This document shows positions 20,526 through 53,800 of a stretch of 64,000 bases of DNA, one piece after another (within the stretch, counting starts at the first letter, position 1; the number at the start of each line of letters is the position of its first letter). The notes under the pieces are model-generated. The model searched no databases and was not told the origin of the DNA. It saw nothing but the letters and a program-made list of their open reading frames with translations. This DNA is from Patescibacteria group bacterium. Lineage in GTDB: Bacteria; Patescibacteriota; Microgenomatia; Levybacterales; UBA12049. A program made the translations under genes and the position numbers. The stretch is taken from contig BPJB01000001.1 in the NCBI GenBank assembly GCA_026004395.1, positions 905,226 through 969,225 on the forward strand, in the 5' to 3' direction.

Positions 20526-20565
20526 TAAGTTTTGATTATGCGACTAAGATAAAGACTTTACTAAG

Positions 20566-21819: not shown

Positions 21820-21825
21820 AATTAT

Positions 21826-34304: not shown

Positions 34305-37300
34305 ATGGACTTACTTGCCCGGTTCAAAAAATACTTAGAAGCACAGAAAAATCCGCCATCATACCTGACGGTTAAAAATTACCTATCAGATATTCGTCAA
34401 TTCATCACGTGGTATGAAACTACCCAACAGCAGGAATTCAAACCAAAGCAAATCACAAAACTTTTGATTGATGCGTATATCAACTACCGCAAGAACTTAA
34501 ATTCAGCTTCTGTCAGATCAACAGAAAGATACTTATCATCGCTTCGGAAGTTTTTCGACTTTCTTAAAGAGAAAAAATATATCAGCTCTAATCCACTCAA
34601 AGACCAAAACAGACTTACCAATAATCCTGATCCGTGGAAACTAAAAGCATTTAAAGATTATCTTTATGTCTATAACGCATCCAATCTAACTATAAAAAAC
34701 TATATCAATGATGTTAAACAGTTTCTGGACTGGGTTGCCAAATCTTCGGGAATAAAAACTCCAGATCAAGATACTATAACTTTTTGGAGAAATACCAAAA
34801 TTAATATATTTTCCTTGATTAATAAGGAGCTCTTACAAAAATACCGCAGCTATCTTCTCTCACAACTCAAATTATCAGAGAATCTTTATCTTGAAAAGCA
34901 GAACAAAGACATAAACACTACAACAATACAGCAATCAGGCAATGCAATCTCTCTATCAGATTCCAAAGAAGCAACTGCAACCGATTTGAATACCAAACAA
35001 GGACTCTCTATTCTTTCTATCAACCGCAAACTCTCATCACTGCGCAAATTCCTTTCATGGGCACAAGATGAAGGACTGGTACAAATTGATCTCTCTTCCC
35101 TCTCCAACATCAGACGCACTGCAGAGGTGAAAGCTATATCATCTGAAGATGCACAGCGCACCTTCACTGGCCCAAGTGCTGCAGGTGAATCAGAAAAAAC
35201 ACAACTGATTTCTCATCTTGCACCCTTAGATGACAGTTCTAAAGATAATCAAAATGACAAGTATCCAAGTCGCCAAATTGAAACTCTTGATACTGAACAA
35301 AAACATAAATACTCCTCATTCCCCCCTCTAAGACTTATCCAAAAGTTAGTAAAAGCTACTCTGCTAGGTATAGATCTGACAATCATCGCTGGTATTGCCA
35401 AATTACTTGAACAGATAACGTACATCAAATGGCTTGCCTCAGGTAAGCAGATATTTATAAAGAGTGCTAAAAAACAATTAGACTTTATTGTCAATAAAAA
35501 CATCAAATCCACGCTTGATAATACTCAACCAGAAAACCGATTTTCTAGTATTGTGGATCTAGTATCTAAAGAAAATCCAAGATTGGAAAAGAACTCAAAT
35601 ACTCAATATCATATACCAAATATCAAATCTCGCTTTCACCCCGCTCATCCAGAATTTACTACCCTGCCTCTGCATTACAGAATCTTGGGGCATCTGCGTC
35701 ATACTAGACCACAATGGTACATAAAGTATCATCAGTATCCGATCGTCCACTATTTCCATTTCGCAGCTCTTATCATCTTTATGAGTGTGATTGGATTTGG
35801 ACTGTACCGATCTTTCTTTGAGCAGCCACAAAAGGAAAAAACTCTTGCTGCTCCTCCAACAGCTCCTCCTAGGATCCTCTCTTTTCAAGGAAGACTAACA
35901 GATATTTCAGATAATCCCATCACCTCAGCTACACCGCTGAGATTTGCGATTTATAATGATCTCACTGCGTCAGGCTCAGCGCTACTTTGGCAGGAGGTGC
36001 AAACAGTTACACCAGACACAGATGGTGTCTTCTCTGTGTTGCTGGGAACAAATACTACTATTCCCTCTAGTGTCTTTACAGACAACTCAAGTCTATATCT
36101 TGGTGTTACGGTACAGACAGACCCTGAGCTTACACCTAGACAACAGATCGCAACAGTGGCATTTGCAGCCAACTCTGAGACGTTGCAGGGACTTTATCCT
36201 ATCACAGCAGCTGGTGCTGGCACATCCAATGTAGTTCTTGCCCTTGATTCATCCGGTAATTTGACAATTGGAGGATCAGCAACACCTAAATTTTCAGCAA
36301 CAGGCGGCGAATTTACCCTATCAGGTAATGTTCTCTCTCTGACAACAAATGTAGGATCCAATACCAACATCAATATTAGCCCAGATGGTAAAGGCGTAGT
36401 AAATATTATCAAACCGTTACAAAATACATCACTCAATAATAACATTACTACAGCTGCTGGAGCTGTAGAAGTAGATGATCTCTTCGCAGTTTTAGCCACA
36501 TCAAGTGGTCAATCAGCCTTTACTATCAATCAAAACGGTGCAGGACCACTGATTAGCGCATCAAGTAGTGGAATTGCTAAATTTACAGTTAATAACGATG
36601 GCTCTGCTTATTTTGCAGGAAATGTAGGCATAGGTATTACTTCACCTACTGGTATATTATCTTTAGCCAATTCTGCAGCTGGTGTTGAGATACTTTTCTC
36701 AGGTGCAAATGCGGCTAATATATATCAAAGTACGTCAGGACAATCTCTATATATTAATACCAATACCGGTGATCTCAGATTAGGAGCTAACGGCTCAGGA
36801 TCAAATGACTTAGTAATAAAATCTACTGGCAACATTGGTATTGGCAATACTACAGCTTCCAACTTCAAACTAGAAGTGACAGGCAATATTGGTCCATCCG
36901 CTGACGTGACCTATAATCTAGGATCACCATCTCTCAGATGGAACAATGTCTATGCCAACAACTTCATCGGCAGCGGCACAGGAGGTACCGCAGGCTATTG
37001 GCAATTAAATAACGGTGCGCTCTCTCCTGCATACAGCACCAATGATGTACTCATAGGAGGAACTGCTACCTCCAGTGCCAAATTTGGATTTATCAACGTC
37101 ATCGGCAGCGGCACACCTACTGCGACAATCTCTGGTAATTTTTCTATTCAAGTCCCAACTGGAACAAATCCTGCCATTAAAATTAATGCTCTCAATGGAG
37201 GATCTATCAACTTCCAAACAGCGACAACAGGACAAGGAGACGCTGGACTCACTTCACGTCTATTCATCAATAATAACGGCAACGTCGGCATCGGGACAAC

Positions 37301-38885
37301 AGCACCAGTACACAAACTAGAACTAGCCTCACACACAACAGCAGCTGGCGGCATAGGTTTTGGCACTGATGTAGAACTCTACAGAGGAGCTGCTAACACA
37401 CTCTACCTTGCCTCTGGTGACTCCCTCAACTTAGTATCAGGCAATCTACAAGTTGCTGGTACAACAGTTATCACCAGTGGTAGGATTATCCAGGCTGCCA
37501 ATGGATCTGCTGCCTCACCCTCATTCACCTTCGCATCCGACACCAACACAGGCATATTTGGGACTGGTAGTGATGTACTCGCTCTCTCAACTGCTGGTGT
37601 AGAAAGACTAAGAGTTGATGCCAGTGGCAATGTGGGTATTGGGACGACTGCACCAACTTCCAAACTAGACATCACCTCAACTGGTACAACCACCAACGGA
37701 TTAAATATCACAGCCAACTCCCTAACAACTGGAACAGGTTTCTCCCTCTCCTCCACATCAACAACTCTCACATCAGGTGGACTCCTCTCTCTTGACTGGT
37801 CCCCAACATCAGCCACTACAGCAACAGGTGATCTTCTCTCCATCAACATCGGTACCAACGGCAACATCGGCAAACTTTTCAACATCAAAGACGCAGGATC
37901 AAGTATCTTCTCCGTCTCAGAATCAACATTTGAAACATCTCTCCCCGTCAACTTCACCTCTCCAGGTGACGTCTCCATTGCCTACGACCTACTCTTCACC
38001 AACCCAACAGCCTCCTACATCAAATCATCAGCTCCTCTCTACATCCAAGCTGGTGAAACATTCAACTCCTCAGACCTCACACTTCAGACCTACAATGCTG
38101 GCAACGTCATCATTGACTCCCAAGCTCTTGTTACCAATCAAGCAGCCACCATCTCAGGTCAACTAGTTATCGGAACAACAAACCCCAACTCCGCTCACAT
38201 AGGCAACTTTTATCTGACCAACTCATCAACCTTTGGCAAAGCTCTTGCCATACTCAACCAAACAGAATCCGCTGACATCTTCACTGCCTCCTCCTCCGGC
38301 ACCACAAGATTTACCATATCCAACAACGGCACCCTCACTGCCACAGCTTACACAATAAACAATGGCTTACTATATACCAATACATCAGGTGTCATCTCTC
38401 AAGTTTCTGACACACCTGCCACCAACGAATGTCTCATCTTCAACGGATCTACCATCCTCTGGGATGCATGCTCAACTGGTGGAGGTGTCACTGGATCAGG
38501 CACCACCAACTACATACCCAAATGGAACTCTTCCTCCTCACTCACAGACTCAACCATCTTTGACAACGGCAACGTGGGTATTGGCACAACAACACCAACT
38601 ACCAAGTTAGAACTAGGCAGTGGTCAATTAGCAGTACCACTAGGATCAGCTACAACTCCATCCTACACCTTCAGCGGAGATCTCAATACCGGTATCTGGT
38701 CATCAGGAGCAGACACTCTCAACTTCTCCACTGGAGGATCTGAAAGAATAAGAATTATCAGCAACGGCAACGTCGGCATCGGGACGACGAGTCCAGCAGT
38801 AAAGCTACATGTTATAGGAACAGGTAAATTCGAAACAGGTCCTAATACATGGAACTGGATAGAAATAAATAGAGGCGGGGGATAA
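34305..38885 (+). CDS. giant membrane-anchored fibre protein 1: N-terminal tandem XerD-type SAM-like/core-binding domains, TM, then GNVGIGTT..KL.V tail-fibre-like repeats
   Basis: aa 1-100: LLARFKKYLEAQKNPPSYLTVKNYLSDIRQFITWYE...IDAYINYRKNLNSASVRSTERYLSSLRKFFDFLKEKKYISSNPL matches the phage-integrase N-terminal SAM-like domain. Two further partial copies follow (LKAFKDYLYVYNASNLTIKNYINDVKQFLDWV; SINRKLSSLRKFLSWAQDEGLV). There is no R..HxxR..Y catalytic domain. Strong TM at about aa 480 (IVHYFHFAALIIFMSVIGFGLY). About 1000 aa of Gly/Thr/Ser/Asn-rich repeats with recurring NGNVGIGTTAPxxKLEL. Confidence 0.75.
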   Translation: MDLLARFKKYLEAQKNPPSYLTVKNYLSDIRQFITWYETTQQQEFKPKQITKLLIDAYINYRKNLNSASVRSTERYLSSLRKFFDFLKEKKYISSNPLKDQNRLTNNPDPWKLKAFKDYLYVYNASNLTIKNYINDVKQFLDWVAKSSGIKTPDQDTITFWRNTKINIFSLINKELLQKYRSYLLSQLKLSENLYLEKQNKDINTTTIQQSGNAISLSDSKEATATDLNTKQGLSILSINRKLSSLRKFLSWAQDEGLVQIDLSSLSNIRRTAEVKAISSEDAQRTFTGPSAAGESEKTQLISHLAPLDDSSKDNQNDKYPSRQIETLDTEQKHKYSSFPPLRLIQKLVKATLLGIDLTIIAGIAKLLEQITYIKWLASGKQIFIKSAKKQLDFIVNKNIKSTLDNTQPENRFSSIVDLVSKENPRLEKNSNTQYHIPNIKSRFHPAHPEFTTLPLHYRILGHLRHTRPQWYIKYHQYPIVHYFHFAALIIFMSVIGFGLYRSFFEQPQKEKTLAAPPTAPPRILSFQGRLTDISDNPITSATPLRFAIYNDLTASGSALLWQEVQTVTPDTDGVFSVLLGTNTTIPSSVFTDNSSLYLGVTVQTDPELTPRQQIATVAFAANSETLQGLYPITAAGAGTSNVVLALDSSGNLTIGGSATPKFSATGGEFTLSGNVLSLTTNVGSNTNINISPDGKGVVNIIKPLQNTSLNNNITTAAGAVEVDDLFAVLATSSGQSAFTINQNGAGPLISASSSGIAKFTVNNDGSAYFAGNVGIGITSPTGILSLANSAAGVEILFSGANAANIYQSTSGQSLYINTNTGDLRLGANGSGSNDLVIKSTGNIGIGNTTASNFKLEVTGNIGPSADVTYNLGSPSLRWNNVYANNFIGSGTGGTAGYWQLNNGALSPAYSTNDVLIGGTATSSAKFGFINVIGSGTPTATISGNFSIQVPTGTNPAIKINALNGGSINFQTATTGQGDAGLTSRLFINNNGNVGIGTTAPVHKLELASHTTAAGGIGFGTDVELYRGAANTLYLASGDSLNLVSGNLQVAGTTVITSGRIIQAANGSAASPSFTFASDTNTGIFGTGSDVLALSTAGVERLRVDASGNVGIGTTAPTSKLDITSTGTTTNGLNITANSLTTGTGFSLSSTSTTLTSGGLLSLDWSPTSATTATGDLLSINIGTNGNIGKLFNIKDAGSSIFSVSESTFETSLPVNFTSPGDVSIAYDLLFTNPTASYIKSSAPLYIQAGETFNSSDLTLQTYNAGNVIIDSQALVTNQAATISGQLVIGTTNPNSAHIGNFYLTNSSTFGKALAILNQTESADIFTASSSGTTRFTISNNGTLTATAYTINNGLLYTNTSGVISQVSDTPATNECLIFNGSTILWDACSTGGGVTGSGTTNYIPKWNSSSSLTDSTIFDNGNVGIGTTTPTTKLELGSGQLAVPLGSATTPSYTFSGDLNTGIWSSGADTLNFSTGGSERIRIISNGNVGIGTTSPAVKLHVIGTGKFETGPNTWNWIEINRGGG

Positions 38886-39070
38886 GATATACTTCTGGTA
38901 GTGATGACACAAACAGAGGAATATGGTCCAATGGCCAATACGCGATGTCGGTATTTACACAAATGGTGTTAATAGAATTTTAGTCAAAAGGAGATTCTGG
39001 CAACGTCGGCATCGGGACAACAACACCCCTTGGCAAACTCAATGTTGATGGTGCTGCCACCGGCAAAGCA

Positions 39071-42000
39071 TTGGTCATCCTCAATGAAACTGGTGATCAG
39101 GCCATACTCACTGCCAGTAAGTCAGGATCAACCAAGTTCCTCATTGACAACAACGGCAATGTTGGCATTGGCACCACTACTATCACCCCAGGCTTCACCT
39201 TCGACAATATCGGACGCGGCAGATTCTCAACAGGTCTATCAATCGGCACAACTGCCACCACCAACACACTCGAACTCTCAGGTACTCTCAACCAAACCTC
39301 AGGTCAAGTAACCTTCGGTGGAAACGTAGATGCTACATCAGGTCTTGACGTCACAGGTGCCTCCCTCACCGTTGGAGGATCAGCCTTCACAGTCACCACC
39401 GCTGGAGTCATAACTGGTACATCCCAAACACTCACCTCAACAGGCAACGCCCTCACACTCTCTGGTGCTGGTGCCAATATATCCTTCAGCGGTGCTGGTC
39501 TTGCCCAAATCACAACAGCTGCCTCCCAACACCTCGCCCTCATGCCAGGCGGCAACGTGGGTATTGGGACGACAACACCCCAAATGAAACTCGATGTAGC
39601 AGGAGCAATAGGAATATCAGGCACAACTGTCATTGATGCATCAAGAAACCTAACCAACATCGCAGGAGTATCAACACACCTTAACCCAACAACTGCCAAC
39701 ACCTACAACCTAGGAACAGGAACTGGCAATCAATACCTCAACCTCTACGCACAAAACATCTACCAAAATGGTATAGCAGTCTGTGACGCCAATGGCAACA
39801 ACTGCCCAACAGGTGGCAACGCTGGACCATGGACAGAAACAGCAGGCATTGTCTACCTAGACACCACCTCCAACAAAGTCTCAATAGGTGACACAACAAC
39901 AGAACACAAACTAGAAGTAGAAGGAGCAATCACCGGCAAAGCACTAGTCTCCCTCTGGGAAAAAGGTGATCAGGACATCTTAGTAGCCTCCAACTCTGCT
40001 ACCCCCACCAACGTCTTCAGAATTACCAATAACGGCTCAATTATCAGCAATGGCACTATTACCGCATCAACCACTAATACCATCAATAGTCTATCCATCA
40101 ACAATGCATCCATCACCAACGCAGTTAATCTAACAGCATCAGGAACAATCACCTTCTCAGGATTAACTCCCAACAGATTAGTCACCACTGATCCCTCATC
40201 CAATCTCACCACCTCCATCTCCTCAGCCAACGTCGCTGCATCAGTAACTGACGAAACAGGAACTGGCAATCTAGTCTTTAACACCTCACCCTCATTCACA
40301 ACCAGCATCACAACAGGATCAACCTCCTTCTCCCTCCTCAATACAACAGCAACTACCATCAACGCCTTCGGTGCAGCAACAACACTGAATATAGGAGCAA
40401 ACTCCGGAACCTTAACACTTGGCAATCCAACTGTTGTTGGCACTCAAACAACTCAAAATCTCTGGAATACCACTGCCACAACCATCAACTTTGCAGGAGC
40501 AGCAACTACTTTGAATATGGGAGCCTCTTCTGGAACAACAACCATCAACAATGCCACTCTCTCTCTACCTAATGCCACCTCAGTCAATATCGCAGGAGCA
40601 TCAGCTATCATCAACCTCTCCTCCTCAACTGGTGCCAAACAAATACAAACAGGTGGAACTACCAACTTAGCCCTCATGCCAGGCGGCAACGTCGGCATCG
40701 GGACGACGAATCCGGGGGCTAAACTTGAAGTTAACGGAACTAGTGATATTGTTCAACTGAAGGTAAAACCAAATGGAAGTCAAACAGCTAATCTTATCGA
40801 AGTTGGAACAGGTAACTTAACCTTTGCCATAAATGGATCCAATAATGTCGCTGTCTCTACTCTTCCTTCAACTGATACCTTCCTAAGAGTCGGTTCTACA
40901 GGATATATCTCATTTAACTCATCTTCTGCTGTCTATGGTATTACTACCACTCCTGTTAACTTTGGTTCAGGAAACGTAGTTGGTATCAGCGCAGGTCCTG
41001 TTACAAATAACTCAGGCGCTGTTTCTGCAATAACAAGTATCTATGGAAGTGTGCGCACAGCGGGTGGAGTATCCAATATTGTAGCAGCAGGAAAAATTTT
41101 TGAAGCTGGTTCCCCTACGATTTCATCAGGTGGTATTACTACTCTTACAGGACTTTATATCAATCAACAAAAAGTAAGTGGTGTGACAACTGGTTATGGT
41201 ATCTATCAAGTATCCTCTGCAGACCTGAATTACTTCGCTGGCAACGTCGGCATCGGGACGACAGCACCAGTCCACAAACTAGAACTAGCTACCCATACAA
41301 CAGCAGCTGGTGGTATAGGTTTTGGCACTGATGTAGAACTCTACAGAGGAGCTGCTAACACACTCTACCTTGCCTCTGGTGACTCTCTCAACTTAGTATC
41401 CGGCAATCTACAAGTTGCTGGTACAACAGTTATCACCAGTGGTAGGATCATCCAGGCTGCCAATGGATCTGCTGCCTCACCCTCATTCACCTTCGCCTCC
41501 GACACCAACACAGGCATATTTGGAACTGGCGCTGATGTACTTGCTCTCTCAACTGCTGGAGTAGAGAGACTAAGAGTTGATGCCAGCGGCAATGTGGGTA
41601 TAAACACCACCTCACCCTCCTATAAACTAGACGTCCAAGGTGGATCAGGCATAGTAGCTCAGTTTAGTGGCAGAGTCATAGGCGCTGATGCTATCAACAC
41701 CAATGAGTTCGTAACTCTAGGTCAACTCCAAGGAGGCAGTGGATCCCTCTGGCTTGATGGTGGAGATTATCTATATCCTAACTCCTCCTTTGCCACCAAT
41801 GTCATGGTACCATCAGGAAGACTAGGTATAGGTCTAACATCTACTCCTTTCAAATTAGAAATCAATGGCAATGATCCCGGCAAAGCCCTAGTCTCCCTCA
41901 ACTACACTGGCACTGATCAAAACATCTTAGTTGCCTCTCAATCTGGAAATCTAAAGTTTGCTGTAGGATACAATGGCAATATCACATCAGCAACTGGTAC

Positions 42001-45000
42001 CCAATGGCTTCCCACCTCAGATTCAACCACTGCTTTGAATATTGCCAATGCTGCAGGAACTTCATTCGTCACCTTTGACAGTACTAATCAACGTGTTGGA
42101 ATTGGGACTACAGCACCAACTACCAAGTTAGAACTAGGCAGTGGTCAATTAGCAGTACCACTAGGATCAGCTACAACTCCATCCTACACCTTCAGCGGAG
42201 ATCTCAATACCGGAATCTGGTCATCAGGAGCAGACACTCTCAACTTCTCCACAGGAGGATCTGAAAGAATAAGAATTATCAGCAACGGCAACGTCGGCAT
42301 CGGGACGACGGGACCTACGGCAAAACTACAAATTGAAGGCTCTGGGGCAAATATATTCCTTAGCAACACGACCTCAAAGTATATCACTTTTGGAGCAGCC
42401 GGCTTTGCTCCTCCTGCTATAGATAGTGCCGGAACCAAATTAATCCTTTACGGTAGTGCCAATAATAATACTAATAACCCAAGATATGCGATGGGGATTG
42501 CACCATCAGAATTGTGGTATTCAAGTGGAGGTGTGCATAGGTGGTATACAGAAAGCGCAGGAACATGGACACCAAGGATGACAATAGATACCTCCGGCAA
42601 CGTCGGCATCGGGACGACAGCTCCTCTTGAAAAACTAGATGTATCAGGAAATGCAACAGTCTCTGGCAATCTCACCTTCTCTGGAGCAAGAACAATCGCC
42701 TCAAGAGCATTCACTCAACTAACCATTGGTGATACCCAAACTGGAAATATCCTTTTCTCACCAGCATCTGGAAAACAAATAATGTTCTTCTCCTCATCCA
42801 ACTACATAGACTCCTCTGGAAACCTTGTTCTCGCTGGCACAACAGGCATCACAGCATCAGGAACAGGTGCTGGTCTTAATTTCTCAGGCACTGGAACCCA
42901 TATCATCCAAGCAAGCGCTGGCACTCTCCAAATCAACGCCTTCACTCTAGGAGGAGCCATAACAGGCAACAACCAAAACATCTCCAGCATCGGCAACATC
43001 ACAGCCAATACCAGTGCCAATACCATAACAGGATTTGGTACTATTGGAACATCAGGTACTACAGCATTCCAAGGTATAACAGCAACACTCAATGGTACTG
43101 GCAACGCTCTCACCCTCTCTGGTGCTGGCGCCAACATCGCCTTTACTGGTGCTGGTCTTGCACAGATCACAACAGCTGCCTCCCAACACCTCGCCCTCAT
43201 GCCAGGCGGCAACGTCGGTATAAACACCACCTCACCCTCCTACAAACTAGACGTCCAAGGTGGATCAGGCATAGTAGCTCAGTTTAGTGGCAGAGTCATA
43301 GGCGCTGATGCTATCAACACCAATGAGTTCGTAACTCTAGGTCAACTCCAAGGAGGCAGTGGATCCCTCTGGCTTGATGGTGGAGACTATCTCTACCCCA
43401 ACTCCTCCTTTGCCACCAATGTCATGGTACCATCAGGAAGACTAGGTGTTGGTCTCTCCTCCACTCCCTTCAAACTGGAAATAACAGGTGCTGATGCTGG
43501 CAAAGCTCTAGCTTCCTTCAACTACACAGGCACTGATCAGAACATCCTTGTTGCTTCACAATCTGGCACACTCAAATTTGCTGTTGGATACAATGGCAAC
43601 ATCACCTCTGCAACAGGTACCAAATGGCTACCTACCTCAGACTCAACCACTGCTTTGAATATAGCCAACTCCTCTGGTACCTCCTTCGTCACCTTTGACA
43701 CTACCAATCAGAGAGTTGGAATTGGGACGACGGCACCTGGAGCAACATTAGACGTATCTGGGACTGATACTTTATTGCAAGATATAAGGTTTGTAGAAGC
43801 AAGCGGAATTAACTATATCCAAAGTACTAACAATAGAGGAGCAAACACATGGCAACCTCTCCACATTGGTGCTGGTTACAGTGGAAGCGATATTAAATTA
43901 GCAATAGACTCTACAGGCAACGTCGGCATCGGGACAACGGGACCGGGACAAAGATTAGATGTACAAGCTTCTGGAACAAATGATGATAGTATAAGACTCA
44001 CCACTGGAAATGCAGATGGTGGTTTACGCTTGAAAAATACTGGCACCGGCGGAGTTGAGTGGTTTATTGATTCTACATCAGGCTCAAGTGGTTACGGACA
44101 AGGAAAACTTGCGTTCGTACCAAATGTTGGGAGCACTCCAACAATGACATTAAGTGGCAGCAACGTAGGTATAAGCACCACAGCTCCAGGGGCATTACTG
44201 GATGTTAGAGGCAACGTTAGATTTCTTTCACAGACCAATAATTATTATCGTACATTTTTTGAAGCTACTACTGAAGGCGGATGGAATTTTCCGTCAATGA
44301 TAGTAGGACAACAAAGAGGAATTGTTATAAAAGATCGATCTGGACTAAGCGGAGGATTATGGCTAAATGGAGGAGATTATAATGCCATTGGTTCAAGAGG
44401 CGGAATAGGAGTTGGTTTAGTTACTGATCTTGGAACATATTTTGCATTAACCTCTTCATCTTCATTCATTAGATTTCACGATGGACAAATTATATTTTAT
44501 GGTAATACAGGATTAACCCCAGGATCAACGTTTTCGCCAACAGAACGTATACGTATTGATGCAACCGGCAACGTCGGCATCGGGACGACGAATCCAACAG
44601 AAAAATTAGAAGTAGTCGGAGATGTGAGGCTTAGGTCTGATAGTGATGTAAATACAAGTGTAGGATCTGGAGTATTGCAAATTTTAAACTCTGGGGGCAC
44701 AGCTGGTATTCATCTTGATGCTAACGAAATCCAAGCTATAGGAAATGATCTCCATATCAACAATGATAATCAAGTTAATACACATATTAACAACTTAGTT
44801 CACATAACTACAGGCGGCAACGTCGGCATCGGGACGACGGGTCCGGTAGCGAAGTTGGATGTGGCAGGATTAATAAAAGGTTCAAGTGGTTTTAGCTCCG
44901 ATGGTACAGCGAAAGTATTAACATACAGGTTGTCGAATTCAACCACAAATAGTGGCGATAGGTATATTGGAAGATTTACCGGCTCTCAATCTAACAGAAT

Positions 45001-47911: not shown

Positions 47912-48575
47912 AAACTTCATGTAATCGGAAACTACAACAGATAACTAATGATTTAGAAGCTATTGACCCCAGCAACCGTATTCTTTGTAGCATCAAATGA
48001 TACTCTATCAACTACATGGCTCATCGGTAAAAACTCCAGGAATCAATTAATACTTAAAGATAAAGATCCAAATACTACTCTTACTGGTCAACGGCAGGCA
48101 CAGTTGCACTTTCAAACACACAACGGCACTGATTGATGGAACTGAATATAATTTTGCAACAGCTGCATTAACTAGTACAAGCGACTACTGTTGTGATTGA
48201 AATTACTAATCCCAATGGCCTTAACGCAGTTTACTCAAATGCAGCATGGTTTACGAGTGTTTTCTTTAGGAACAATTATGCCACAGCTCTATAACAGTTG
48301 ACGCACGTTATGATGGACATCCAGGATCCTATCAAACAATTTGGTCAACAACAACAAACGATCAAAGAACATGGCTAAGTTCAGCTGTCACGACCACGCT
48401 CACGGGATGACAGTCCCAGAAAATCACATCGTTGGTGGATCACTTACCTTGGTACCAGCGCTGGAGTCCACTTAACTACGGATGGACTCCAAACAGTAGA
48501 ACGGCAACTATCTCAGTATGCTCTTGAACTAGGAACAACATTTTATCGGTCATCAACTTTCCTACTGGTAGCTGC
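47912..48575 (+). pseudogene. degenerate, stop-riddled remnant of fibre-repeat coding sequence between giant ORFs 2 and 3
   Basis: Directly after the TAG at 47909-47911 the sequence still encodes KLHVIGNYNR, the same KLHVIG motif that ends ORF 1. It then gives protein-like translation interrupted by many stops in all frames. Confidence 0.4.
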
Positions 48576-50147
48576 TTGATACTCCCTACAGCGGAACAGA
48601 ATCACCTCGCACTCATGCCAGGTGGCAACGTGGGTATAAACACCACCACTCCAGTCTATACCCTTGATGTTAATGGCACATTTAGATCCTCATCGACATC
48701 AAACGCTGTTTTCGGCAATGGTACAACAGGTGGAATCCAACTAGGAGATGGTACTATTACAAAAACTACAGGCAATCCCTTTACTATGAATAGTGGACTA
48801 ACACTTAGCCAAAATCTCGCAGTCAATGGCGGTTCAATCACCTCAACTGTTGATCTGACTCTCAATCCATCAGGCGGTCAAGTCTTCCTCGCTGATACTG
48901 ATACCCTAGCTATAGGAGGCCATGCAGGAGCTGCCTACAACGCAATATCCAACGCAGGTGGAACTCCATCCAACCCCAACGTCACATCAGACAACGATCT
49001 CTACATCCAAGGCGATCTGGACATCGGAGGCACACTATATGTCGGTGGATCTCAAATTGCCAATTACTGGCAGCGCAATGGCACAACTCTTGCCCCAACA
49101 ACTACTACAGACAGTGTCGTACTAGGAGGCAATACATCAACTGTTCACCAGTTTGAAGTTAATGGAGCAGTAACAGGCAAGGCTCTTGTTGCCCTCACTG
49201 AGACTGGTGATCAAAATATCATCACTGCCTCCTCTTCTGCTACAACAACTGTCTTCAATCTCTCACGCACAGGCGCAATCAGCGTTGCCGCAGGACAAGG
49301 ATTGGATACGATCTCAGCTGGAGCACTTAATATAGGTACCACCACCCAAACAGCACTTACTCTTGGACAATCAGGAGCAACAACAACTATTAATGGCTCA
49401 TCTCTAACTGTTGGTCCCACCTCATGGACAGCAACACCTACTATCTCAGGACTGATCACAGCCACAAGCGGACTCACTGCCAACGGAGCACTCACCGCTA
49501 ACAACGTCTTTACACTAGGAGACGGTGGTGACACAGGATCAATCAACACCTCAGACTGGGATATCTCAACCACAGGCGTTATGACTGGTATCTCAGGCAT
49601 AACAACAGATGGAGGATACACTCAGTCAGGTACTGCCATCAATACCTTCACCGGTGATCTATCTCTTGGAACAGGTGTACAGGTAGACTTCGCAGATGAA
49701 GTCGGTGACAAATTGTATCTTTTCTCCAATACATATGGAATAGGCATTGAATCCTCAACACTCACCAACTGGTCAGCAAGTACATTCCGCTGGAGAATAG
49801 GTGGCACATCTGTCTCAACTGGCACTGAATACATGACACTAACAAGCAGTGCTCTTAACCTTGCCAACAACACTCTGACCTCAACTGTGATCTCACCCTC
49901 AATCCCTCAGGAGGCCAAGTCTTCCTCGCTGATACGATACCCTAGCTATTGGAGGCCATGCAGGAGCTGCCTACAACGCAATATCCAACGCAGGTGGAAC
50001 TCCATCCAACCCCAACGTCACATCAGACAACGATCTCTACATCCAAGGCGATCTGGACATCGGAGGCACACTATATGTCGGTGGATCTCAAATTGCCAAT
50101 TACTGGCAGCGCATCGCTGGCAACCTCTCACCAATAAATCTCAATGA
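48576..50147 (+). CDS. fibre-protein fragment 3 (523 aa as called); the last ~85 codons are out-of-frame read-through of a duplicated segment
   Basis: Starts ...QNHLALMPGGNVGINTTTPVYTLDVNG, the motif seen in gene 2. The C-terminal Arg-rich tail (RYPSYWRPCRSCLQRNIQRRWNSIQPQRHIRQRS...) is the +1 frame of a copy of 48860-49077. Confidence 0.5.
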   Translation: MILPTAEQNHLALMPGGNVGINTTTPVYTLDVNGTFRSSSTSNAVFGNGTTGGIQLGDGTITKTTGNPFTMNSGLTLSQNLAVNGGSITSTVDLTLNPSGGQVFLADTDTLAIGGHAGAAYNAISNAGGTPSNPNVTSDNDLYIQGDLDIGGTLYVGGSQIANYWQRNGTTLAPTTTTDSVVLGGNTSTVHQFEVNGAVTGKALVALTETGDQNIITASSSATTTVFNLSRTGAISVAAGQGLDTISAGALNIGTTTQTALTLGQSGATTTINGSSLTVGPTSWTATPTISGLITATSGLTANGALTANNVFTLGDGGDTGSINTSDWDISTTGVMTGISGITTDGGYTQSGTAINTFTGDLSLGTGVQVDFADEVGDKLYLFSNTYGIGIESSTLTNWSASTFRWRIGGTSVSTGTEYMTLTSSALNLANNTLTSTVISPSIPQEAKSSSLIRYPSYWRPCRSCLQRNIQRRWNSIQPQRHIRQRSLHPRRSGHRRHTICRWISNCQLLAAHRWQPLTNKSQ

Positions 50148-50181
50148 CACAATCTCTGCTACTACATCAGCATCTACAGCA

Positions 50182-50715
50182 TTGACTATAACTCAAACTG
50201 GTGCATTTGATGTCGTCAGATTTGAAGATCAAGCATCAGATACAACACCATTCGTAATCGATCAAAATGGGAATGTCGGTATTGGTACCACAGCACCAGG
50301 GTACAAACTAGATGTAGCTGGAAGTGTCAATATTGGTAGTAATAGTCACTTATATTTTGCCGGAGGTAATCCTCATATTGAAAGTATATATGATGACTTT
50401 ATTTTCCAAGTTGATACTGACAATAATGCCACAGGTAGATTTTTCTTCAAAGACACAAATACCGATGTTATGACAATCGTCAATGGCAACGTGGGTATTG
50501 GTACAACTGCACCTACAGCCAAACTTGATATTACTGGTGATGCTTCCTCCTCCGGCTCTCTAGTACTTCGAGGTACTTCACCAACTACATTAGATATCTT
50601 AAATGGAGGAAGATTTGATATCCAAACCTCTGTAGGAGGAGATGCAGGACTTACTCCAAGATTGACAATCACCAGCAACGGCAATGTAGGCATCGGGACA
50701 ACGGGACCAGCTTGA
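50182..50715 (+). CDS. fibre-protein fragment 4 (177 aa; TTG start as called). Its frame extends upstream through the duplicated segment and downstream, via a 1-nt shift, into ORF 5
   Basis: Contains DQNGNVGIGTTAPGYKLDVAG and NGNVGIGTTAPTAKLDITG, and ends GNVGIGTTGPA*. The upstream in-frame sequence reads ...GGSQIANYWQRIAGNLSPINLNDTISATTSAS with no stop. Confidence 0.5.
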   Translation: MTITQTGAFDVVRFEDQASDTTPFVIDQNGNVGIGTTAPGYKLDVAGSVNIGSNSHLYFAGGNPHIESIYDDFIFQVDTDNNATGRFFFKDTNTDVMTIVNGNVGIGTTAPTAKLDITGDASSSGSLVLRGTSPTTLDILNGGRFDIQTSVGGDAGLTPRLTITSNGNVGIGTTGPA

Positions 50716-50899
50716 TCTTCTGGACGTAAATGGTGGCGTCATCATTCGCGATCGAGCTGCAATTCAAGGGACAGGCGCAAGCTGTAGCGCTCCTGGTGCT
50801 GGAACTGCAGGCTGGTGGTATGCTGATGCAGGAGATTGTTCAACTGTCTTTGCCGGGATAAATACTGCTACCAACGGCTCTGAGGTCTTTGGAATATAC

Positions 50900-53800
50900 A
50901 TGGGCAGCTGGGACTGGACAATAGATATTAATGGCAATGTCACCAATGCTGGCAATCTCACAGTCCAGGGTACAACAGGTATAACTGCTTCTGGAACTGG
51001 TGCTGGTCTTAACTTCTCTGGCACAGGAACGCACACAATCCAAGCAAGCGCTGGAACTTTGCAAATCAACGCATTTACTCTGGGAGGAGCTATCACAGGC
51101 AACAACCAAAATATCTCCAGTATCGGCAACATCACAGCCAATACAAGTGCCAATACCATCACAGGATTTGGCACCATAGGAACATCAGGCACAACAGCAT
51201 TCCAAGGAATAACAGCTACCCTCAGTGGTACTGGCAACGCTCTCACCCTCTCTGGTGCTGGTGCCAACATCGCCTTCACTGGTGCAGGTCTAGCCCAAAT
51301 CACAACAGCCGCCTCCCAACACCTCGCCCTCATGCCAGGCGGCAACGTGGGTATAGGCACTACTACTCCAACACTGGGCAAACTCACAGTACTTGGCACA
51401 ACGGCAGCTCAAACATTTGCTGATTATGACAATACAGCCTACTTCTTGGATCCAGCAACAACAACTACCTCACTCAACATCGCAGGTGGTGCCAATATTG
51501 GTGGTTATGCAACAGTCTCTGCCTCTCTTGCTGTTGGCTACACCAACGCACCTGCTGGTCCTGGACATGCCATCTTCGCAGGCAACTTAGGCATAGGTAC
51601 TACAGCACCAGTCCACAAACTAGAACTAGCCTCCCACACAACAGCAACTGGTGGCATAGGATTTGGCACTGATGTAGAACTCTACAGATCTGCTGCTGAT
51701 ACCCTCTCCCTTGCATCAGGTGACTCCCTCAACCTAGTCTCTGGCAATCTACAGGTTGGTAGTACAACAGTTATCACCAGTGGTAGGATTATTCAAGCTA
51801 CCAATGGCAGTGCTACATCTCCCTCATTCACCTTCTCCTCTGACACCAACACTGGCATATTTGGAACAGGTGCTGATGTACTCGCTATCTCAACTGCTGG
51901 CACAGAGAGAGTACGAATTGCTGCCAATGGCAATGTAGGTATAGGGACAACAACAACTGATTTCCAAACCACTATTCAAGAAAGCACTAATAGTAAAGGT
52001 ATCTTAGCGCTTCTTGGCGATGGCAACCAAACATTATTCACTGCCTCAATCTCAGGATCAACTAAGTTCTTAGTTGATAAGACTGGTAACGTCGGCATCG
52101 GGACTATAGCACCTAGTACCCTTTTGCATGTTGCCATGGACAACGGCACCCTACCTACATTAAGCTCTAGTACAGGTTTTGTAATTAATAATAATAGTGC
52201 AACGACAGACGATGTAAGTTTGTCTCTGGTAGCAGGAACAGCGGCAATGGCATGGCTTAGAATGGGTGATAGCGCTGATGAAAGTGCAGGAGCTGTCATA
52301 TATGACAACTCAGAGGATAGTATGTCACTCAGAGTTAACTCTGGAACACGTATAAAGATTACAAGTACCGGAAAAATTTCTCTTGGTGCCAGCGGTGTTA
52401 CTGAGCTTGGAAGTTCTAACATTCCTGATGGATCAGTTATTCTTCCTAATGGAGCATTTTGTGTCGACGATGGTGCTCAAAACTGTGATGACGCAGCTCG
52501 CGTAGCTGGAAGAATTTATGCTGAGTCAACAACAATTACTGCGATAGACTTGGCAGAAAATTATCCATCTAAAGACTCTACTATGGAAGCTGGAGACCTA
52601 GTAGTTGCCGATCCGGACAATACAGAGTATGTGAAGAAATCAACTGGCGCGTACCAGCCGTCTCTTATAGGTGTCATCTCAACCAAACCTGGTATTCTCC
52701 TTGGAGGATTTGGCGAGGAGGCAAAGAGATTCCCAGATGACAAAAAATACCCAATAGCTCTTGCCGGAAGAATACCAGTAAAAGTTTCAACGATCAATGG
52801 ACCCATCAAACGAGGCGACTACCTCACCTCCTCTCCAATTCCAGGTGTGGCGATGAAAGCAACTAGAGCTGGACAAATAGTCGCAAAAGCACTTGAGGAT
52901 TATAACACTCCTGATACGAATACAGTTGGCAAAATAGTCGCATTGGTTAACGTCTCTTGGTACGACCCACAGGTCTATATTGCAGACTCAGGTGACTTGA
53001 ATATCACAAACAACGCTGGTGACTTTAAAGCATGGGTTGCCGGACAACCAGTTGAGAGAAAAGCAGCCTATGCAGATGCTGTTATTGCACGTCTTACAAC
53101 AGGTATTGTAAAGACCAAACAATTACTTGTTGAAGGCACTGCTACATTCCTTGGAAGTGTCCAGATGCAGACATTGAATGTAGCCAATACTCTTAAAGCA
53201 GCATCTATTGAGGTTGCCAATAATCTCCAGGCAGGCACGATCAATGCCACAACTATAGCGGTCAATAGCCTCTCCATTGCCGGTCAGAATCTGAGAGATT
53301 ATATACTTGCAGTTGTTGAACAAGCTGGATTCTCTAAGAATCAAAATAACATCACCTCACCCATAGCTGATATTGATAGAATCCATACCAGCGTCATATC
53401 ACCGCTTGCTTCTGACTCTGCAATCTTGGTAAACGGCAAACTTGTCATCAAGAGAGGTAACGAAGGATCTGATGATTCTTCGACTTCGTCTCAAAATAAC
53501 ATTGCACTAGAAGTTCAAGGTTCAGCCTCAATTAGTGGAAATCTATCAGTCAGTGATGCAAGTATTGCTGGTACTCTTCGCGCTGGTAAGATCATCGCTG
53601 ATCAGATAGAGGGACTCGATGCACGCATTGCAAGTCTTGCAGCCAACGCTATCACCGCAACCAACGCAGCTATTGCGACAAACTCTACTGCATCGGATTC
53701 AGGAATACTTGCATCAGGAAGTGCAACTCTTGCTTCTCTGATCTCATCTACAATCGTTAGTGACTATGCTTCTGTTGCTAGCTTCACAGCAAATCTAGCC

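What the first reader, a model, noticed from the sequence alone, without database searches (positions are those of the whole stretch)
37275..52110. Perfectly conserved GC-rich 23-mer (GGCAACGTCGGCATCGGGACGAC) recurs at least 17 times inside otherwise diverged fibre repeats
Seen directly: the motif GNVGIGTT is encoded by exactly the same codons (caacgtcggcatcggga) at roughly 37275, 38770, 38999, 40685, 41240, 42290, 42597, 43917, 44570, 44816, 45366, 46066, 47117, 47303, 47633, 47877 and 52088. The flanking codons and the rest of each repeat differ substantially at synonymous sites, and the genome is AT-rich. Synonymous-site invariance of a 17-23-nt GC-rich island points to selection or homogenisation at the DNA level, not just on the peptide. 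One candidate role is a microhomology anchor for segmental gene conversion or cassette shuffling among repeats, analogous to the short direct repeats that bracket vls/pilS-type cassettes, giving surface-fibre variation. Another is a recombinase, methylase or other binding site.
Basis: partly seen in the sequence, partly recalled or inferred. Interest (0 to 1): 0.7.

Follow-up and report, generated by a model that had tools for sequence, protein, structure and literature searches.

The report
Identical codon island joining fibre-gene modules
A 20-24-base GC-rich codon string for one conserved loop peptide is identical in 16 copies inside a giant surface-fibre gene cluster of a tiny AT-rich bacterium; it marks where fibre modules have been duplicated, lost and swapped, and the same string recurs in unrelated bacteria and archaea.

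Summary
The window has 33 GNVGIGTT-type motif copies. Sixteen share the 20-mer GGCAACGTCGGCATCGGGAC, and 12 share the full 23-mer, not 17. Codon usage predicts 0.65 identical pairs; 120 are seen. The 16 copies sit in 13 upstream and 14 downstream flank contexts, and nearby conserved P/K/L codons vary freely.

The motif encodes the capping loop of trimeric beta-helix fibres related to Bdellovibrio MAT and phage tail fibres, in Patescibacteria MAG KatS3mg089.

The motif is a recombination junction:
- 25 of 30 ends of internal duplications lie within 30 nt of a motif (17% expected).
- A 1047-nt cassette is bounded by exact copies on both sides.
- Chimeric motif versions show crossovers inside it.
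- A related strain diverges inside motif 51929 into a different module set that contains an S74 domain.
- A related species differs by exactly one module between two motif copies.

Best explanation: recombination and heteroduplex repair confined to the only shared stretch homogenise it and drive in-frame module shuffling. No dedicated recombinase, reverse transcriptase or vls/pilS-type architecture was found.

One point is unexplained. The same string is the commonest of 385 encodings in unbiased samples (11%; 18% in metagenomes). It forms GC islands in AT-rich genes of CPR, DPANN, Bacteroidia and Omnitrophica.

The parts
34305..38885 (+). ORF1 (KatS3mg089_0919, 1526 aa): N-terminal XerC/D-like SAM domains, a hydrophobic, probably membrane-spanning stretch, then fibre modules; holds exact copies 37278 and 38766
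39071..47911 (+). ORF2 (KatS3mg089_0920, 2946 aa): mosaic of fibre modules; 13 exact copies inside it, all in one frame, and a 14th (38999) just upstream in the same frame
   Evidence: PDB 8ond/8oml/8ojn similarity; PHROG tail-fibre families
48576..50147 (+). ORF3: fibre fragment whose tail is out of frame because of a duplication spaced 1036 nt apart (48900-49077 / 49936-50113)
50182..50715 (+). ORF4 (KatS3mg089_0922, 177 aa): fibre fragment with three non-exact motif copies
50900..54586 (+). ORF5 (KatS3mg089_0923, 1228 aa): fibre with distinct C-terminal part; only non-exact motif copies
37278..37301 (+). exact 20-mer copy (GGCAACGTCGGCATCGGGACAACA); left edge of block B; the related species L582 has two motif copies and one extra module here
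38766..38789 (+). exact 23-mer copy; right edge of block A
38999..39022 (+). exact 20-mer copy in frame with ORF2 but upstream of its first start codon and 15 nt after an in-frame TAG
40685..40708 (+). exact 23-mer copy; both flanks unique at the DNA level (<80% identity to every other exact copy; the upstream peptide LALMPG recurs at non-exact copies)
41240..41263 (+). exact 23-mer copy; left boundary of the 1047-nt cassette B-C-A (first copy)
42287..42310 (+). exact 23-mer copy; right boundary of the cassette (first copy)
42596..42619 (+). exact 23-mer copy, unique flanks
43916..43939 (+). exact 20-mer copy, unique flanks
44567..44590 (+). exact 23-mer copy, unique flanks
44816..44862 (+). 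exact 23-mer copy with GC-rich codons continuing to ...CCG GTA GCG AAG TTG GAT GTG; this 47-nt stretch is 91-94% identical to copies in unrelated genomes
45368..45391 (+). exact 23-mer copy; left edge of the diverged block C'
46067..46090 (+). exact 23-mer copy; junction of block A (upstream) and block B (downstream); left boundary of the second cassette copy
47114..47137 (+). exact 23-mer copy; right boundary of the second cassette copy
47303..47326 (+). exact 23-mer copy, unique flanks
47630..47653 (+). exact 20-mer copy, unique flanks
47876..47899 (+). exact 23-mer copy, followed 9 nt later by the in-frame TAG that ends ORF2
41240..42310 (+). cassette B-C-A plus its bounding motifs, 98.7% identical to 46067-47137; homology stops at the motif on both sides
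46067..47137 (+). second copy of cassette B-C-A
43208..43231 (+). chimeric motif GGCAACGTCGGTATAAACACCACC: the left half matches the 'LALMPG' or exact type, and the right half (ATAAACACCACC) matches the block-C type also found at 41588 and 46415 behind a different left half
51929..51952 (+). non-exact motif copy in which the between-strain breakpoint lies: strain L579 is identical up to base 17 of the motif and then diverges
51946..53070 (+). segment replaced in the related strain L579 by a different 1.7-kb module set that contains a Peptidase_S74 domain
36618..52108 (+). span holding all 33 GNVGIGTT-type motif copies. The 17 non-exact copies are at 36618, 36828, 37626, 38568, 39155, 39551, 41588, 43208, 46415, 48624, 50269, 50485, 50680, 51341, 51581, 51929 and 52085

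Best explanation
What it is. The island is the DNA for the conserved capping-loop peptide GNVGIGTT. This peptide opens each module of a roughly 20-kb cluster of trimeric beta-helix fibre genes (MAT / tail-fibre type) in a Patescibacteria genome.

Shown.
- The motif is the place where homology blocks begin and end.
- Duplications, a one-module indel relative to a related species and a module swap relative to a related strain all have breakpoints in motif copies.
- Crossovers inside the motif are visible as chimeric motif versions.

Inferred.
- The modules are otherwise unrelated at the DNA level. Strand pairing between them is therefore confined to these roughly 24 bases. The pairing could be RecA-dependent, at about the minimal homology length, or RecA-independent annealing or slippage between short direct repeats.
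- Mismatch correction in that short heteroduplex would homogenise the codons and leave the flanks untouched, which produces an island with sharp edges.
- Identical, in-frame copies then recombine more readily. This positive feedback yields in-frame gain, loss and reassortment of modules, and so variation in fibre length and tip.
- No dedicated enzyme is required.

Not explained. It is unknown why the winning version is this particular GC-rich string, which also predominates in unrelated genomes. GC-biased repair or lateral spread of a short tract are candidates.
For: Identity is far beyond codon usage: 120 identical pairs against 0.65 expected, and a largest class of 16 against at most 4 in simulations.

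The island has sharp limits. Six codons are identical, T7 and T8 share a codon in 59% and 49% of pairs, and the codon before the motif and conserved P/L/V codons after it share one in only 22-42%, as in non-exact copies.

Exact copies cluster between 37278 and 47899 and are absent from ORF3-5. That pattern fits proximity-dependent homogenisation better than a requirement of the peptide.

Where homology extends from an exact copy, it does so on one side only. Of 30 ends of internal duplications that are at least 84% identical, 25 lie within 30 nt of a motif, against 17% for random positions. Other genomes give 59% against 26%.

The 1047-nt cassette 41240-42287 = 46067-47114 is bounded by exact copies on both sides.

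Motif halves segregate with their own flanks, as at 41588, 43208 and 48624.

Strain L579 has 97-98% identical flanking genes. It matches the window for 59 nt up to and into motif 51929, then carries different modules with an S74 domain.

Species L582 has one extra module of about 100 aa between two near-exact motifs, where the window has the single copy at 37278.

All exact copies within one ORF share a frame.

Some other loci have their own dominant version, for example L195 with GGTAATGTTGGTATAGGTAC in 6 of 12 copies. The exact string's share rises with copies per locus in the metagenome sample, from 7% to 50%.
Against: - Local homogenisation predicts lineage-specific strings. Instead the same string is the commonest of 385 versions in unbiased samples, and it occurs in AT-rich genes of different phyla and both prokaryotic domains without longer shared DNA.
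- Alternative GC-ending codons are not enriched, so generic GC-biased repair is not sufficient.
- Seventeen of 33 copies in the locus are not homogenised.
- 24 nt is at the lower limit for RecA-dependent exchange.
- No rate or within-population heterogeneity was measured.
- The strain comparison rests on a Logan contig that starts only 42 nt before the motif.
Confidence: 0.55

Rival explanations
1. The 24-mer, perhaps extended to about 45 nt, is a nucleic-acid element under purifying selection in its own right. It could be a small hairpin or a protein-binding site in mRNA or single-stranded DNA. Its use as a recombination junction would then be secondary.
For: - The same string is modal across unrelated taxa: 11% of 1003 unbiased copies, and 26-28% of metagenome copies whose flank GC3 is 0.2-0.4, where fewer than 2 copies are expected.
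- Position-specific enrichment favours exactly its codons in AT-rich contexts, while fully conserved P/K/L codons nearby are not GC-enriched.
- The 24-mer folds as CGUCG-N9-CGACG at -6 kcal/mol.
- The only complementary third-position association among 15 pairs is pos9-pos21, with OR about 2.5-2.7 and p about 1e-5.
Against: - Only 56% and 38% of copies can pair at the two variable stem positions, and a codon-phase slide control scores as high.
- The longer palindrome shows no covariation.
- About 89% of copies overall, and 17 of 33 in this locus, lack the string. Orthologous and paralogous copies drift freely: 51581 differs at 5 of 24 positions, and L582 differs at 3 of 24.
- There is no Rfam match.
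- The GC3 excess decays gradually over codons -1 to +13, as expected for hitch-hiking.
Confidence: 0.17
2. A short tract of about 25-45 nt with common descent spreads laterally between fibre genes of different organisms and between copies within a genome. The route could be uptake of fragmented environmental DNA followed by annealing at the replication fork. The GC-rich version would be favoured because it anneals best or because repair is biased towards it. The motif would then act as a shared linker for module exchange across lineages.
For: - An extended haplotype ...ACGACG NNN CCGGGGGCGAAGTTG is shared by loci labelled Pseudomonadales, Parcubacteria, Woesearchaeota and Omnitrophica, plus L097 (taxon not shown in the output): 6 of 8 exact-core copies followed by PGAKL.
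- CCG and AAG are in linkage with the exact core.
- GC3 decays away from the core.
- There is no longer shared DNA between loci.
- The string is commoner in the metagenome sample (18%) than in the first viral sample (3%).
- ComEA and ComEC lie in the window.
Against: - There is no direct evidence of transfer.
- Incorporation of such short, mismatched fragments is known to me only from Acinetobacter (own knowledge).
- Taxonomic labels of MAG contigs can be wrong.
- The two later viral samples show 10-16% exact copies.
Confidence: 0.12
3. A programmed vls/pilS-type antigenic variation system. ORF1 would be the expression site, and ORF2-5 would be promoterless silent cassettes copied into it by segmental gene conversion, guided by the short repeat.
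For: - Only ORF1 has an N-terminal anchor. ORF2-5 follow head to tail, separated by a few stops and frameshifts, as in the vls silent array (own knowledge).
- Blocks A and B of ORF1 recur at 91-97% identity in ORF2.
Against: - The modules are different domain types, not variants of one cassette.
- An 8.8-kb reading frame open in a 37% GC genome argues that ORF2 is translated.
- The locus also carries out-of-frame scars.
- No reverse transcriptase or complete recombinase is present; no G4-like element was searched for.
- The breakpoints seen in relatives lie in ORF5 and ORF1 alike.
Confidence: 0.07
4. Translational selection. The codons would be kept for accuracy at a structurally critical loop, or as a rare-codon pause that aids co-translational folding.
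For: - AAC, ATC and GGC are C-ending codons often preferred at conserved sites (own knowledge).
- GGG and ACG are rare here, so a rare-codon cluster follows each loop.
Against: - The same string occurs in loci from 33% to 68% GC, where codon rarity differs.
- Total invariance of 6-8 codons is not what codon selection produces.
- Other fully conserved residues show no such bias.
- Half of the copies use ordinary codons.
Confidence: 0.05
5. Trivial causes: the copies are recent duplicates that are identical by descent, or the pattern is an assembly artefact.
For: - Six of the 16 copies border 94-99% identical blocks.
- The genome is a MAG that contains 1-kb near-identical repeats.
Against: - There are 13-14 distinct flank classes, and synonymous sites are saturated 6-40 nt away.
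- A 24-nt identity inside unique flanks does not confuse assemblers that use k-mers above 31 (inference).
- The same pattern is seen in hundreds of loci from many projects and assemblers.
- Independent assemblies of relatives show motif-bounded differences.
Confidence: 0.03

Closest known systems
Conserved-motif recombination in T-even phage tail-fibre adhesins (gp37 His boxes, gp38 glycine-rich motifs; Tetart et al. 1996/1998 as cited in PMC3157838)
   Same: Short conserved motifs with a structural role separate variable segments of a fibre or adhesin. [quoted passage not shown] No dedicated enzyme is involved.
   Different: - This is a cellular (Patescibacteria) genome with a 20-kb multi-module cluster.
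- The motif is identical at every synonymous site in 16 copies.
- The same nucleotide string recurs across phyla. I found no report of that for the phage motifs.
Bdellovibrio mosaic adhesive trimer (MAT) fibres and S74-type phage fibres (PMC10769870)
   Same: - The protein repeat modules align to solved MAT fibres (8ond at E = 1.5e-7, also 8oml and 8ojn).
- The motif corresponds to their capping-loop consensus V-G-G/N-pi-x-x-P-x-x-x-L.
- S74 and non-S74 tips are exchanged between relatives, as between the MAT subfamilies.
   Different: [quoted passage not shown] It says nothing about nucleotide-level conservation or the exchange mechanism. Sequence identity to the MAT proteins is low.
Borrelia vls locus: 17-bp direct repeats flanking cassettes (PMC2632889, PMC9159922)
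   Same: - Short direct repeats sit at cassette borders of a surface protein gene.
- Cassettes lie head to tail in a nearly continuous frame.
- Segmental recombination is involved.
   Different: - vls cassettes are 90%+ identical variants of one region and are copied unidirectionally into one expression site.
- Here the modules are heterogeneous, the events seen are duplications, indels and swaps, and no expression-site / silent-array logic is demonstrated.
Concerted evolution and unequal or slipped recombination between short direct repeats in repeat-bearing surface proteins (own knowledge, e.g. RecA-independent deletion between short repeats in E. coli)
   Same: - In-frame repeats.
- Copy-number change bounded by the repeats.
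- Homogenisation within a genome.
   Different: Usually the whole repeat unit is homogenised and the string is lineage-specific. Here only 24 nt inside otherwise unalignable modules are homogenised, and the string is shared between lineages.
Shufflons and other site-specific recombinase systems (R64 Rci/sfx; own knowledge)
   Same: Repeats of about 19-24 nt separate segments of an adhesin gene.
   Different: sfx sites are inverted and are served by an adjacent tyrosine recombinase. Here all copies are direct and no complete recombinase gene is nearby.

Membership tests
MAT / S74-type trimeric beta-helix fibre proteins | Sequence similarity of the repeat modules to solved family members | tested here: met
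   phmmer against PDB: 8ond_A (Bd2133) E = 1.5e-7, 8oml_A E = 4.6e-4, 8ojn_C E = 0.016. PHROG tail-fibre families 9942, 18345 and 28766 reach E = 5e-52. No Pfam hit on the repeats.
MAT / S74-type trimeric beta-helix fibre proteins | Capping-loop motif V-G-G/N-pi-x-x-P-x-x-x-L | tested here: met
   GN-VGIGTTxPxxKL aligns with ...GNLGLGTAAPTSAL... of Bd2133. The consensus is taken from PMC10769870. There is a one-residue register difference from the printed consensus.
MAT / S74-type trimeric beta-helix fibre proteins | C-terminal Peptidase_S74 chaperone (S74 subfamily) or an alternative tip (NS74) | tested here: inconclusive
   No S74 domain in any window ORF. The ORF5 orthologue of strain L579 has one (E = 1.9e-18). 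Many distant homologues carry PF13884.
MAT / S74-type trimeric beta-helix fibre proteins | Trimeric beta-helix fold and surface display | not tested
   No structure prediction was run. Surface display needs experiment.
vls / pilS-type cassette antigenic variation | One expression site plus an array of silent cassettes that are variants of the same region | tested here: not met
   The modules are different domain types. Only blocks A and B recur between ORF1 and ORF2. ORF2 is an intact 2946-aa frame.
vls / pilS-type cassette antigenic variation | Short conserved repeats at cassette borders | tested here: met
   The motif lies at block borders.
vls / pilS-type cassette antigenic variation | Unidirectional segmental gene conversion at high frequency within a population | not testable with these tools
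   Needs read-level or experimental data.
Motif-mediated modular exchange in fibre/adhesin genes (T-even type) | Conserved short motifs separating variable segments | tested here: met
   33 motif copies delimit heterogeneous modules.
Motif-mediated modular exchange in fibre/adhesin genes (T-even type) | Breakpoints of exchanges between related genomes fall in the motifs | tested here: met
   L579: the left breakpoint lies inside motif 51929, but the right breakpoint at 53071 is not at a motif. L582: a one-module indel lies between two motif copies. Only two comparisons were available.
Concerted evolution by unequal or slipped recombination | Within-genome identity exceeding that expected from divergence of the surrounding sequence | tested here: met
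Concerted evolution by unequal or slipped recombination | Homogenised sequence differs between lineages | tested here: not met
   The same 20-mer is modal across unrelated taxa. Some loci do have their own dominant string.
Site-specific recombination (shufflon / integron-like) | Dedicated recombinase next to the sites; inverted or structured sites | tested here: not met
   All copies are on one strand. Only N-terminal SAM-like domains without a catalytic domain are present in ORF1. A Y1_Tnp gene lies about 8.3 kb beyond the last motif copy (52085-52108) and 12.5 kb beyond the last exact copy.
Diversity-generating retroelement | Reverse transcriptase with a template/variable repeat pair | tested here: not met
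   No RT domain in any ORF of 150 aa or more (plus two shorter ones) outside the fibre region. The repeats found are coding blocks, not TR/VR pairs.
DNA uptake sequence / Chi-like genome-wide signal | Over-representation throughout the genome, not confined to one gene family | tested here: not met
   All 16-19 matches in the 64-kb window lie inside the fibre ORFs or, for 38999, in frame just upstream of ORF2. The rest of the 1.08-Mb genome was not available.
Known RNA family | Match to an Rfam covariance model | tested here: not met
   Only two tRNAs reach gathering score in the window. Nothing at E <= 1 in 44400-45500.

The most novel reading that the evidence does not exclude
The roughly 24-nt string GGCAACGTCGGCATCGGGACGACG, with an extended form ending ...CCGGGGGCGAAGTTG, would be a nucleotide-level element maintained across bacterial and archaeal phyla inside fibre genes. 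It would be kept identical by an active process. Candidates are lateral short-tract conversion from environmental DNA, or an enzyme acting on its small single-strand hairpin, for example the Y1/HUH protein encoded nearby. Its role would be that of a universal in-frame linker that lets fibre modules be exchanged within and between lineages.
Probability: 0.18. Interest if true: 0.85.

Novelty: new variant of a known kind. Interest (0 to 1): 0.68.

Why it matters
CPR bacteria and DPANN archaea depend on attachment to other cells, and giant fibre genes are among their least understood features. A built-in, in-frame recombination linker would explain how such fibres change length and tip quickly without any special machinery. 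It would also give a simple sequence marker for finding variable adhesin loci in metagenomes.

The cross-phylum identity of a codon string inside AT-rich genes is not predicted by ordinary concerted evolution. If it reflects lateral short-tract conversion or selection on nucleotides, it is a new case of non-neutral synonymous sites that can be tested directly by recoding.

Tried and rejected
- **Recent-duplicate explanation.** Rejected on flank classes and synonymous saturation.
- **Codon bias.** Rejected.
- **Generic GC-biased conversion, or transitions from the AT-rich consensus.** Position-specific data do not fit. GGG1, GTG3 and ACC7 are not enriched, and ACG far exceeds ACC although ACT is at least as common as ACA.
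- **Extended 45-nt palindrome, with C-ending codons on the left pairing with G-ending codons on the right.** It folds at -16 kcal/mol but shows no covariation.
- **Small 5-bp hairpin.** One covarying pair, but a weak overall count and equal slide controls. Left as inconclusive.
- **Recent inter-taxon transfer of whole modules.** There are no long high-identity matches among the 120 GTDB loci or between them and the window.
- **Close orthologues by protein search.** All hits were 30% identity or less over long stretches.
- **Exact look-ups of ORF1, ORF5 and the LamG gene for other assemblies.** Nothing was found by the look-up of encoding contigs. Relatives were reached through cluster members instead.
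- **Cultured phages.** No match to the 65-nt region around 44816.
- **Literature.** No paper holds the peptide or the DNA string.
- **Rfam.** Nothing found.
- **Reverse transcriptase or recombinase in the window.** None found.
- **Y1_Tnp co-occurrence.** Homologues lie within 8 kb of the motif in 6 of 120 GTDB loci, which is not clearly more than the background density in CPR genomes.
- **Stop-codon recoding.** There are only two in-frame TAGs in 20 kb, and housekeeping ORFs read normally in table 11. Rejected by inspection.

Full report
**Observation**

The exact 23-mer occurs 12 times. The 17-mer occurs 16 times, and these 16 copies share the full 20-mer GGCAACGTCGGCATCGGGAC. All lie on the + strand between 37278 and 47899, with 0.00 expected in shuffles.

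A six-frame peptide scan finds 33 GNVGIGTT-type motifs between 36618 and 52108. Seventeen of them use other codons. Mismatches to the 20-mer are bimodal, with 16 copies at 0 and most others at 4-7.

The window is about 37% GC. Third-position GC is 0.30 in housekeeping ORFs and 0.34 in the fibre ORFs outside the motif. GGG and ACG make up 2.9% and 2.5% of Gly and Thr codons there, so the codon string has probability 2.5e-6 given the peptide.

Among the 27 copies that encode GNVGIG, 0.65 identical pairs are expected and 120 are seen. The largest identical class was at most 4 in 20,000 simulations, against 16 observed.

**Are the flanks diverged?**

The 16 copies fall into 13 upstream and 14 downstream flank classes (45 nt, at least 80% identity). 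Pairs in different classes average 31% and 46% identity.

Conserved residues just outside the motif (P at +9, L at +13, V at +15) share a codon in 22-30% of pairs. That is the same as among the non-exact copies. The two Thr codons at the 3' edge are intermediate, at 59% and 49%. The island is therefore about 20-24 nt long, with a sharp 5' edge.

The phrase 'otherwise diverged' still needs a qualification. Six copies border blocks of 0.2-1 kb that are 94-99% identical, and that homology extends on one side of the motif only, never on both.

**What the genes are**

The window is from a cellular genome. It carries LeuRS, ArgRS, MreB, ComEC/ComEA, a sortase and two tRNAs. Exact look-ups name it as MAG 'Patescibacteria group bacterium KatS3mg089', a 1,084,101-bp contig. 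The five fibre ORFs are KatS3mg089_0919 to _0923.

Pfam finds nothing in the repeats. The modules do align to solved Bdellovibrio 'mosaic adhesive trimer' fibres (8ond at E = 1.5e-7, also 8oml and 8ojn) and to PHROG tail-fibre families. Distant homologues often end in a Peptidase_S74 chaperone domain.

In the MAT paper, the motif region forms 'capping loops' on the edges of an intertwined trimeric beta-helix, with consensus V-G-G/N-pi-x-x-P-x-x-x-L (PMC10769870). The peptide therefore has a structural reason to be conserved. The codons do not.

**The motif is a recombination junction**

In a self-comparison of 36-53 kb, 25 of 30 ends of duplications at least 150 nt long and at least 84% identical lie within 30 nt of a motif. 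Random positions give 17%. Several of the remaining ends sit at a variant motif, RVGIGTT.

The 1047-nt cassette 41240-42287 reappears at 46067-47114 with 98.7% identity and is bounded by exact copies on both sides.
- Block A precedes four different downstream modules, at 38766, 42287, 46067 and 47114.
- Block B follows different upstream modules at 37278, 41240 and 46067, with a diverged fourth copy after the non-exact motif at 51581.

Among non-exact copies, the left half of the motif travels with the upstream block and the right half with the downstream block. The right half ATAAACACCACC is joined to GGCAATGTGGGT at 41588 and 46415, to GGCAACGTCGGT at 43208, and to GGCAACGTGGGT at 48624. These are crossovers inside the motif.

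Loci from other genomes show the same tendency: 59% of block ends are near a motif, against 26% expected.

**Relatives**

Strain L579 (Logan SRR22372591) is 97-98% identical in the genes downstream of the cluster. Its ORF5 orthologue matches the window for 59 nt, up to base 17 of motif 51929. It then carries a different 1.7-kb set of modules, and identity resumes at 53071. The swapped part contains a Peptidase_S74 domain, which the window's ORF5 lacks. The weakness is that this contig starts only 42 nt before the motif.

Species L582 (GCA_900174565.1) is about 77-85% identical in ORF1. It has two near-exact motif copies, GGTAACGTCGGCATCGGAACAACG and GGCAACGTCGGCATCGGAGCAGCA, with one extra module of about 100 aa between them. 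The window has the single exact copy at 37278 in that place.

Both place structural differences at motif copies.

At the orthologous site the motif differs at 3 of 24 positions, against roughly 25% in the flank. A non-exact orthologous copy (36618) differs at 7 of 24. This is suggestive of homogenisation but far too few sites to be a test.

**Mechanism**

Modules are unalignable except at the motif, so strand pairing between different modules can only cover those roughly 24 bases. Correction of mismatches in such a short heteroduplex would homogenise the motif and nothing else. That accounts for the sharp island.

Identical copies in one frame are then better substrates for further exchange, and every exchange keeps the frame. 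The clustering of exact copies in 37-48 kb and their absence from ORF3-5 fits a proximity-dependent process. It fits a requirement of the peptide or a site needed at each module less well.

These steps are inferred; no rate was measured. The locus also carries scars that fit frequent rearrangement:
- an out-of-frame duplication spaced 1036 nt apart in ORF3;
- a 660-nt stretch without an ORF after 47911;
- an ORF1/ORF2 junction made of a G5 run plus an in-frame TAG.

No reverse transcriptase, complete recombinase or Rfam family was found. All copies are direct, which excludes a shufflon-like inversion system.

**The wider, unexplained finding**

The carriers include many CPR lineages, DPANN archaea, Omnitrophica, Elusimicrobia, Bacteroidia, Planctomycetes and Acidobacteria, and many loci hold several copies. 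In these loci the same picture recurs: an upper-case GC island in AT-rich, unrelated flanks. L035 has 21 exact copies of 24. L022, L031, L037, L043, L044 (Woesearchaeota) and L059 (Bacteroidia) show the same.

That sample was ascertained on the string, so I also drew unbiased samples with the degenerate pattern GGNAAYGTNGGNATHGGNACNAC. Two of the viral scans added GCNCC or GGNCC downstream, which could be linked to the string.
- Among 1003 copies in 457 loci there are 385 versions. The exact 20-mer is the commonest at 11%, four times the next, and the runners-up are mostly its one-mismatch neighbours.
- In the metagenome sample it is 18% overall. It is 26-28% of copies whose flank GC3 is 0.2-0.4, where fewer than 2 copies are expected if the six codons were independent.
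- In the first viral sample it is 3%.

In AT-rich contexts, precisely its codons are enriched over the local background: GGC 35% against 10%, AAC 51% against 23%, GTC 21% against 6%, sixth-codon GGG 19% against 7%, and seventh-codon ACG 24% against 5%. The alternative GC-ending codons are not enriched. Fully conserved P, K and L codons nearby show no GC excess.

Around exact cores in AT-rich flanks, GC3 decays from the core over about codons -1 to +13. A longer haplotype...ACGACG NNN CCGGGGGCGAAGTTG, is shared by five loci with different taxonomic labels. No longer DNA identity links the loci.

Lineage-specific concerted evolution does occur, since some loci have their own dominant string. The string's share also rises with array size. 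Neither fact explains why one string wins in so many lineages.

**Hairpin test**

The 24-mer can form a 5-bp stem, CGUCG-N9-CGACG, at -6 kcal/mol. Three of its pairs are fixed by the amino acids. Among 15 pairs of four-fold third positions, only pos9-pos21 shows a complementary association within A/T-ending codons (OR 2.5-2.7, p about 1e-5; 1.9 with one copy per locus). Other significant associations are between like bases.

On 150 one-per-locus sequences, only 56% and 38% of copies pair at the two variable positions, and a codon-phase slide control scores as high. A longer palindrome shows no covariation. I regard the hairpin as unproven.

**Comparison with known systems**

The closest functional analogue is the T-even phage adhesin. 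[quoted passage not shown] The proteins belong with the MAT / S74-type fibres, whose C-termini were noted to have been exchanged in evolution (PMC10769870).

The vls analogy holds only for short repeats at cassette borders. The expression-site / silent-cassette logic is not seen here.

I found no paper containing the peptide or the DNA string, and no match in cultured phage genomes.

**Verdict**

The specific cassette-variation and binding-site ideas are not supported.

The local phenomenon is a new variant of a known kind: motif-anchored modular recombination with concerted evolution. The cross-phylum predominance of one codon string in AT-rich fibre genes is the surprising part, and it remains unexplained.

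Noticed in passing
window 34305-35000 (ORF1 N-terminus): The giant fibre protein starts with tyrosine-recombinase N-terminal SAM-like (core-binding) domains. These are Phage_int_SAM_1 at E = 5e-17 and weak XerC/XerD/XerS N-terminal matches at aa 5-100 and about 110-216. No catalytic domain follows; next come a hydrophobic, probably membrane-spanning stretch and the fibre repeats. The same N-terminus is present in the related species L582.
   Followed up: partly
window 38870-39071: ORF1 ends right after a G5 run (38877-38881). One more G would read on for 32 codons, to an in-frame TAG (38981-38983) that sits 15 nt before exact motif 38999. That motif is in frame with ORF2 but upstream of its first start codon (TTG 39071). 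ORF1 and ORF2 therefore look like one gene separated by two lesions.
   Followed up: partly
window 47876-48576: ORF2 ends at an in-frame TAG 9 nt after an exact motif, at a position where other copies have an ordinary residue (GPG*KLHV). The next 660 nt have stops in all frames.
   Followed up: no
window 48900-49077 and 49936-50113: A 99% identical duplication spaced 1036 nt apart, which is not a multiple of 3, puts the tail of ORF3 out of frame. Its ends are not at motif copies.
   Followed up: partly
window 60397-61041 (-): A single IS200-like Y1_Tnp (HUH) gene is conserved at the same position in related strains L579 and L580 (95-96% aa). Homologues lie within 8 kb of the motif in 6 of 120 GTDB loci, all apparently CPR. 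Y1 enzymes act on small single-strand hairpins, so this may be worth a binding test, but the co-occurrence is not clearly above background.
   Followed up: partly
window 55009-60272: The LamG/DUF2341 giant protein is 1545 aa here and is followed by a separate 113-aa LamG fragment. Its orthologues in L579 and L580 are single proteins of 1740 and 1736 aa, so the window copy is probably split.
   Followed up: no
window 19644-22443 (-): DNA-uptake genes ComEA (SLBB + HHH), ComEC (Competence domain) and a metallo-beta-lactamase ORF lie 12 kb upstream of the fibre cluster.
   Followed up: no
L579:1-3312 versus window 51887-54586: Two strains with 97-98% identical neighbouring genes carry an S74-containing and an S74-less version of the same fibre gene. 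This parallels the S74 / non-S74 split of the Bdellovibrio MAT family.
   Followed up: yes
motif copies in all sampled loci (L121-L578): Within the preferred string, third positions are C in the left half (GGC AAC GTC GGC ATC) and G in the right half (GGG ACG ACG, then often CCG GGG GCG AAG TTG). The pattern is symmetric about the centre and remains unexplained.
   Followed up: partly
L035:4058, L160 and other loci: A second recurrent GC-type version, GGGAATGTGGGGAT[TC]GGGAC, appears in several unrelated loci.
   Followed up: no
window minus strand, e.g. 37403-37978, 39970-40443, 50764-51399: Long antisense ORFs across the fibre genes contain VVP[MI]PTLP, the reverse-complement reading of the motif. 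They look like by-products of the codon pattern, not genes.
   Followed up: no
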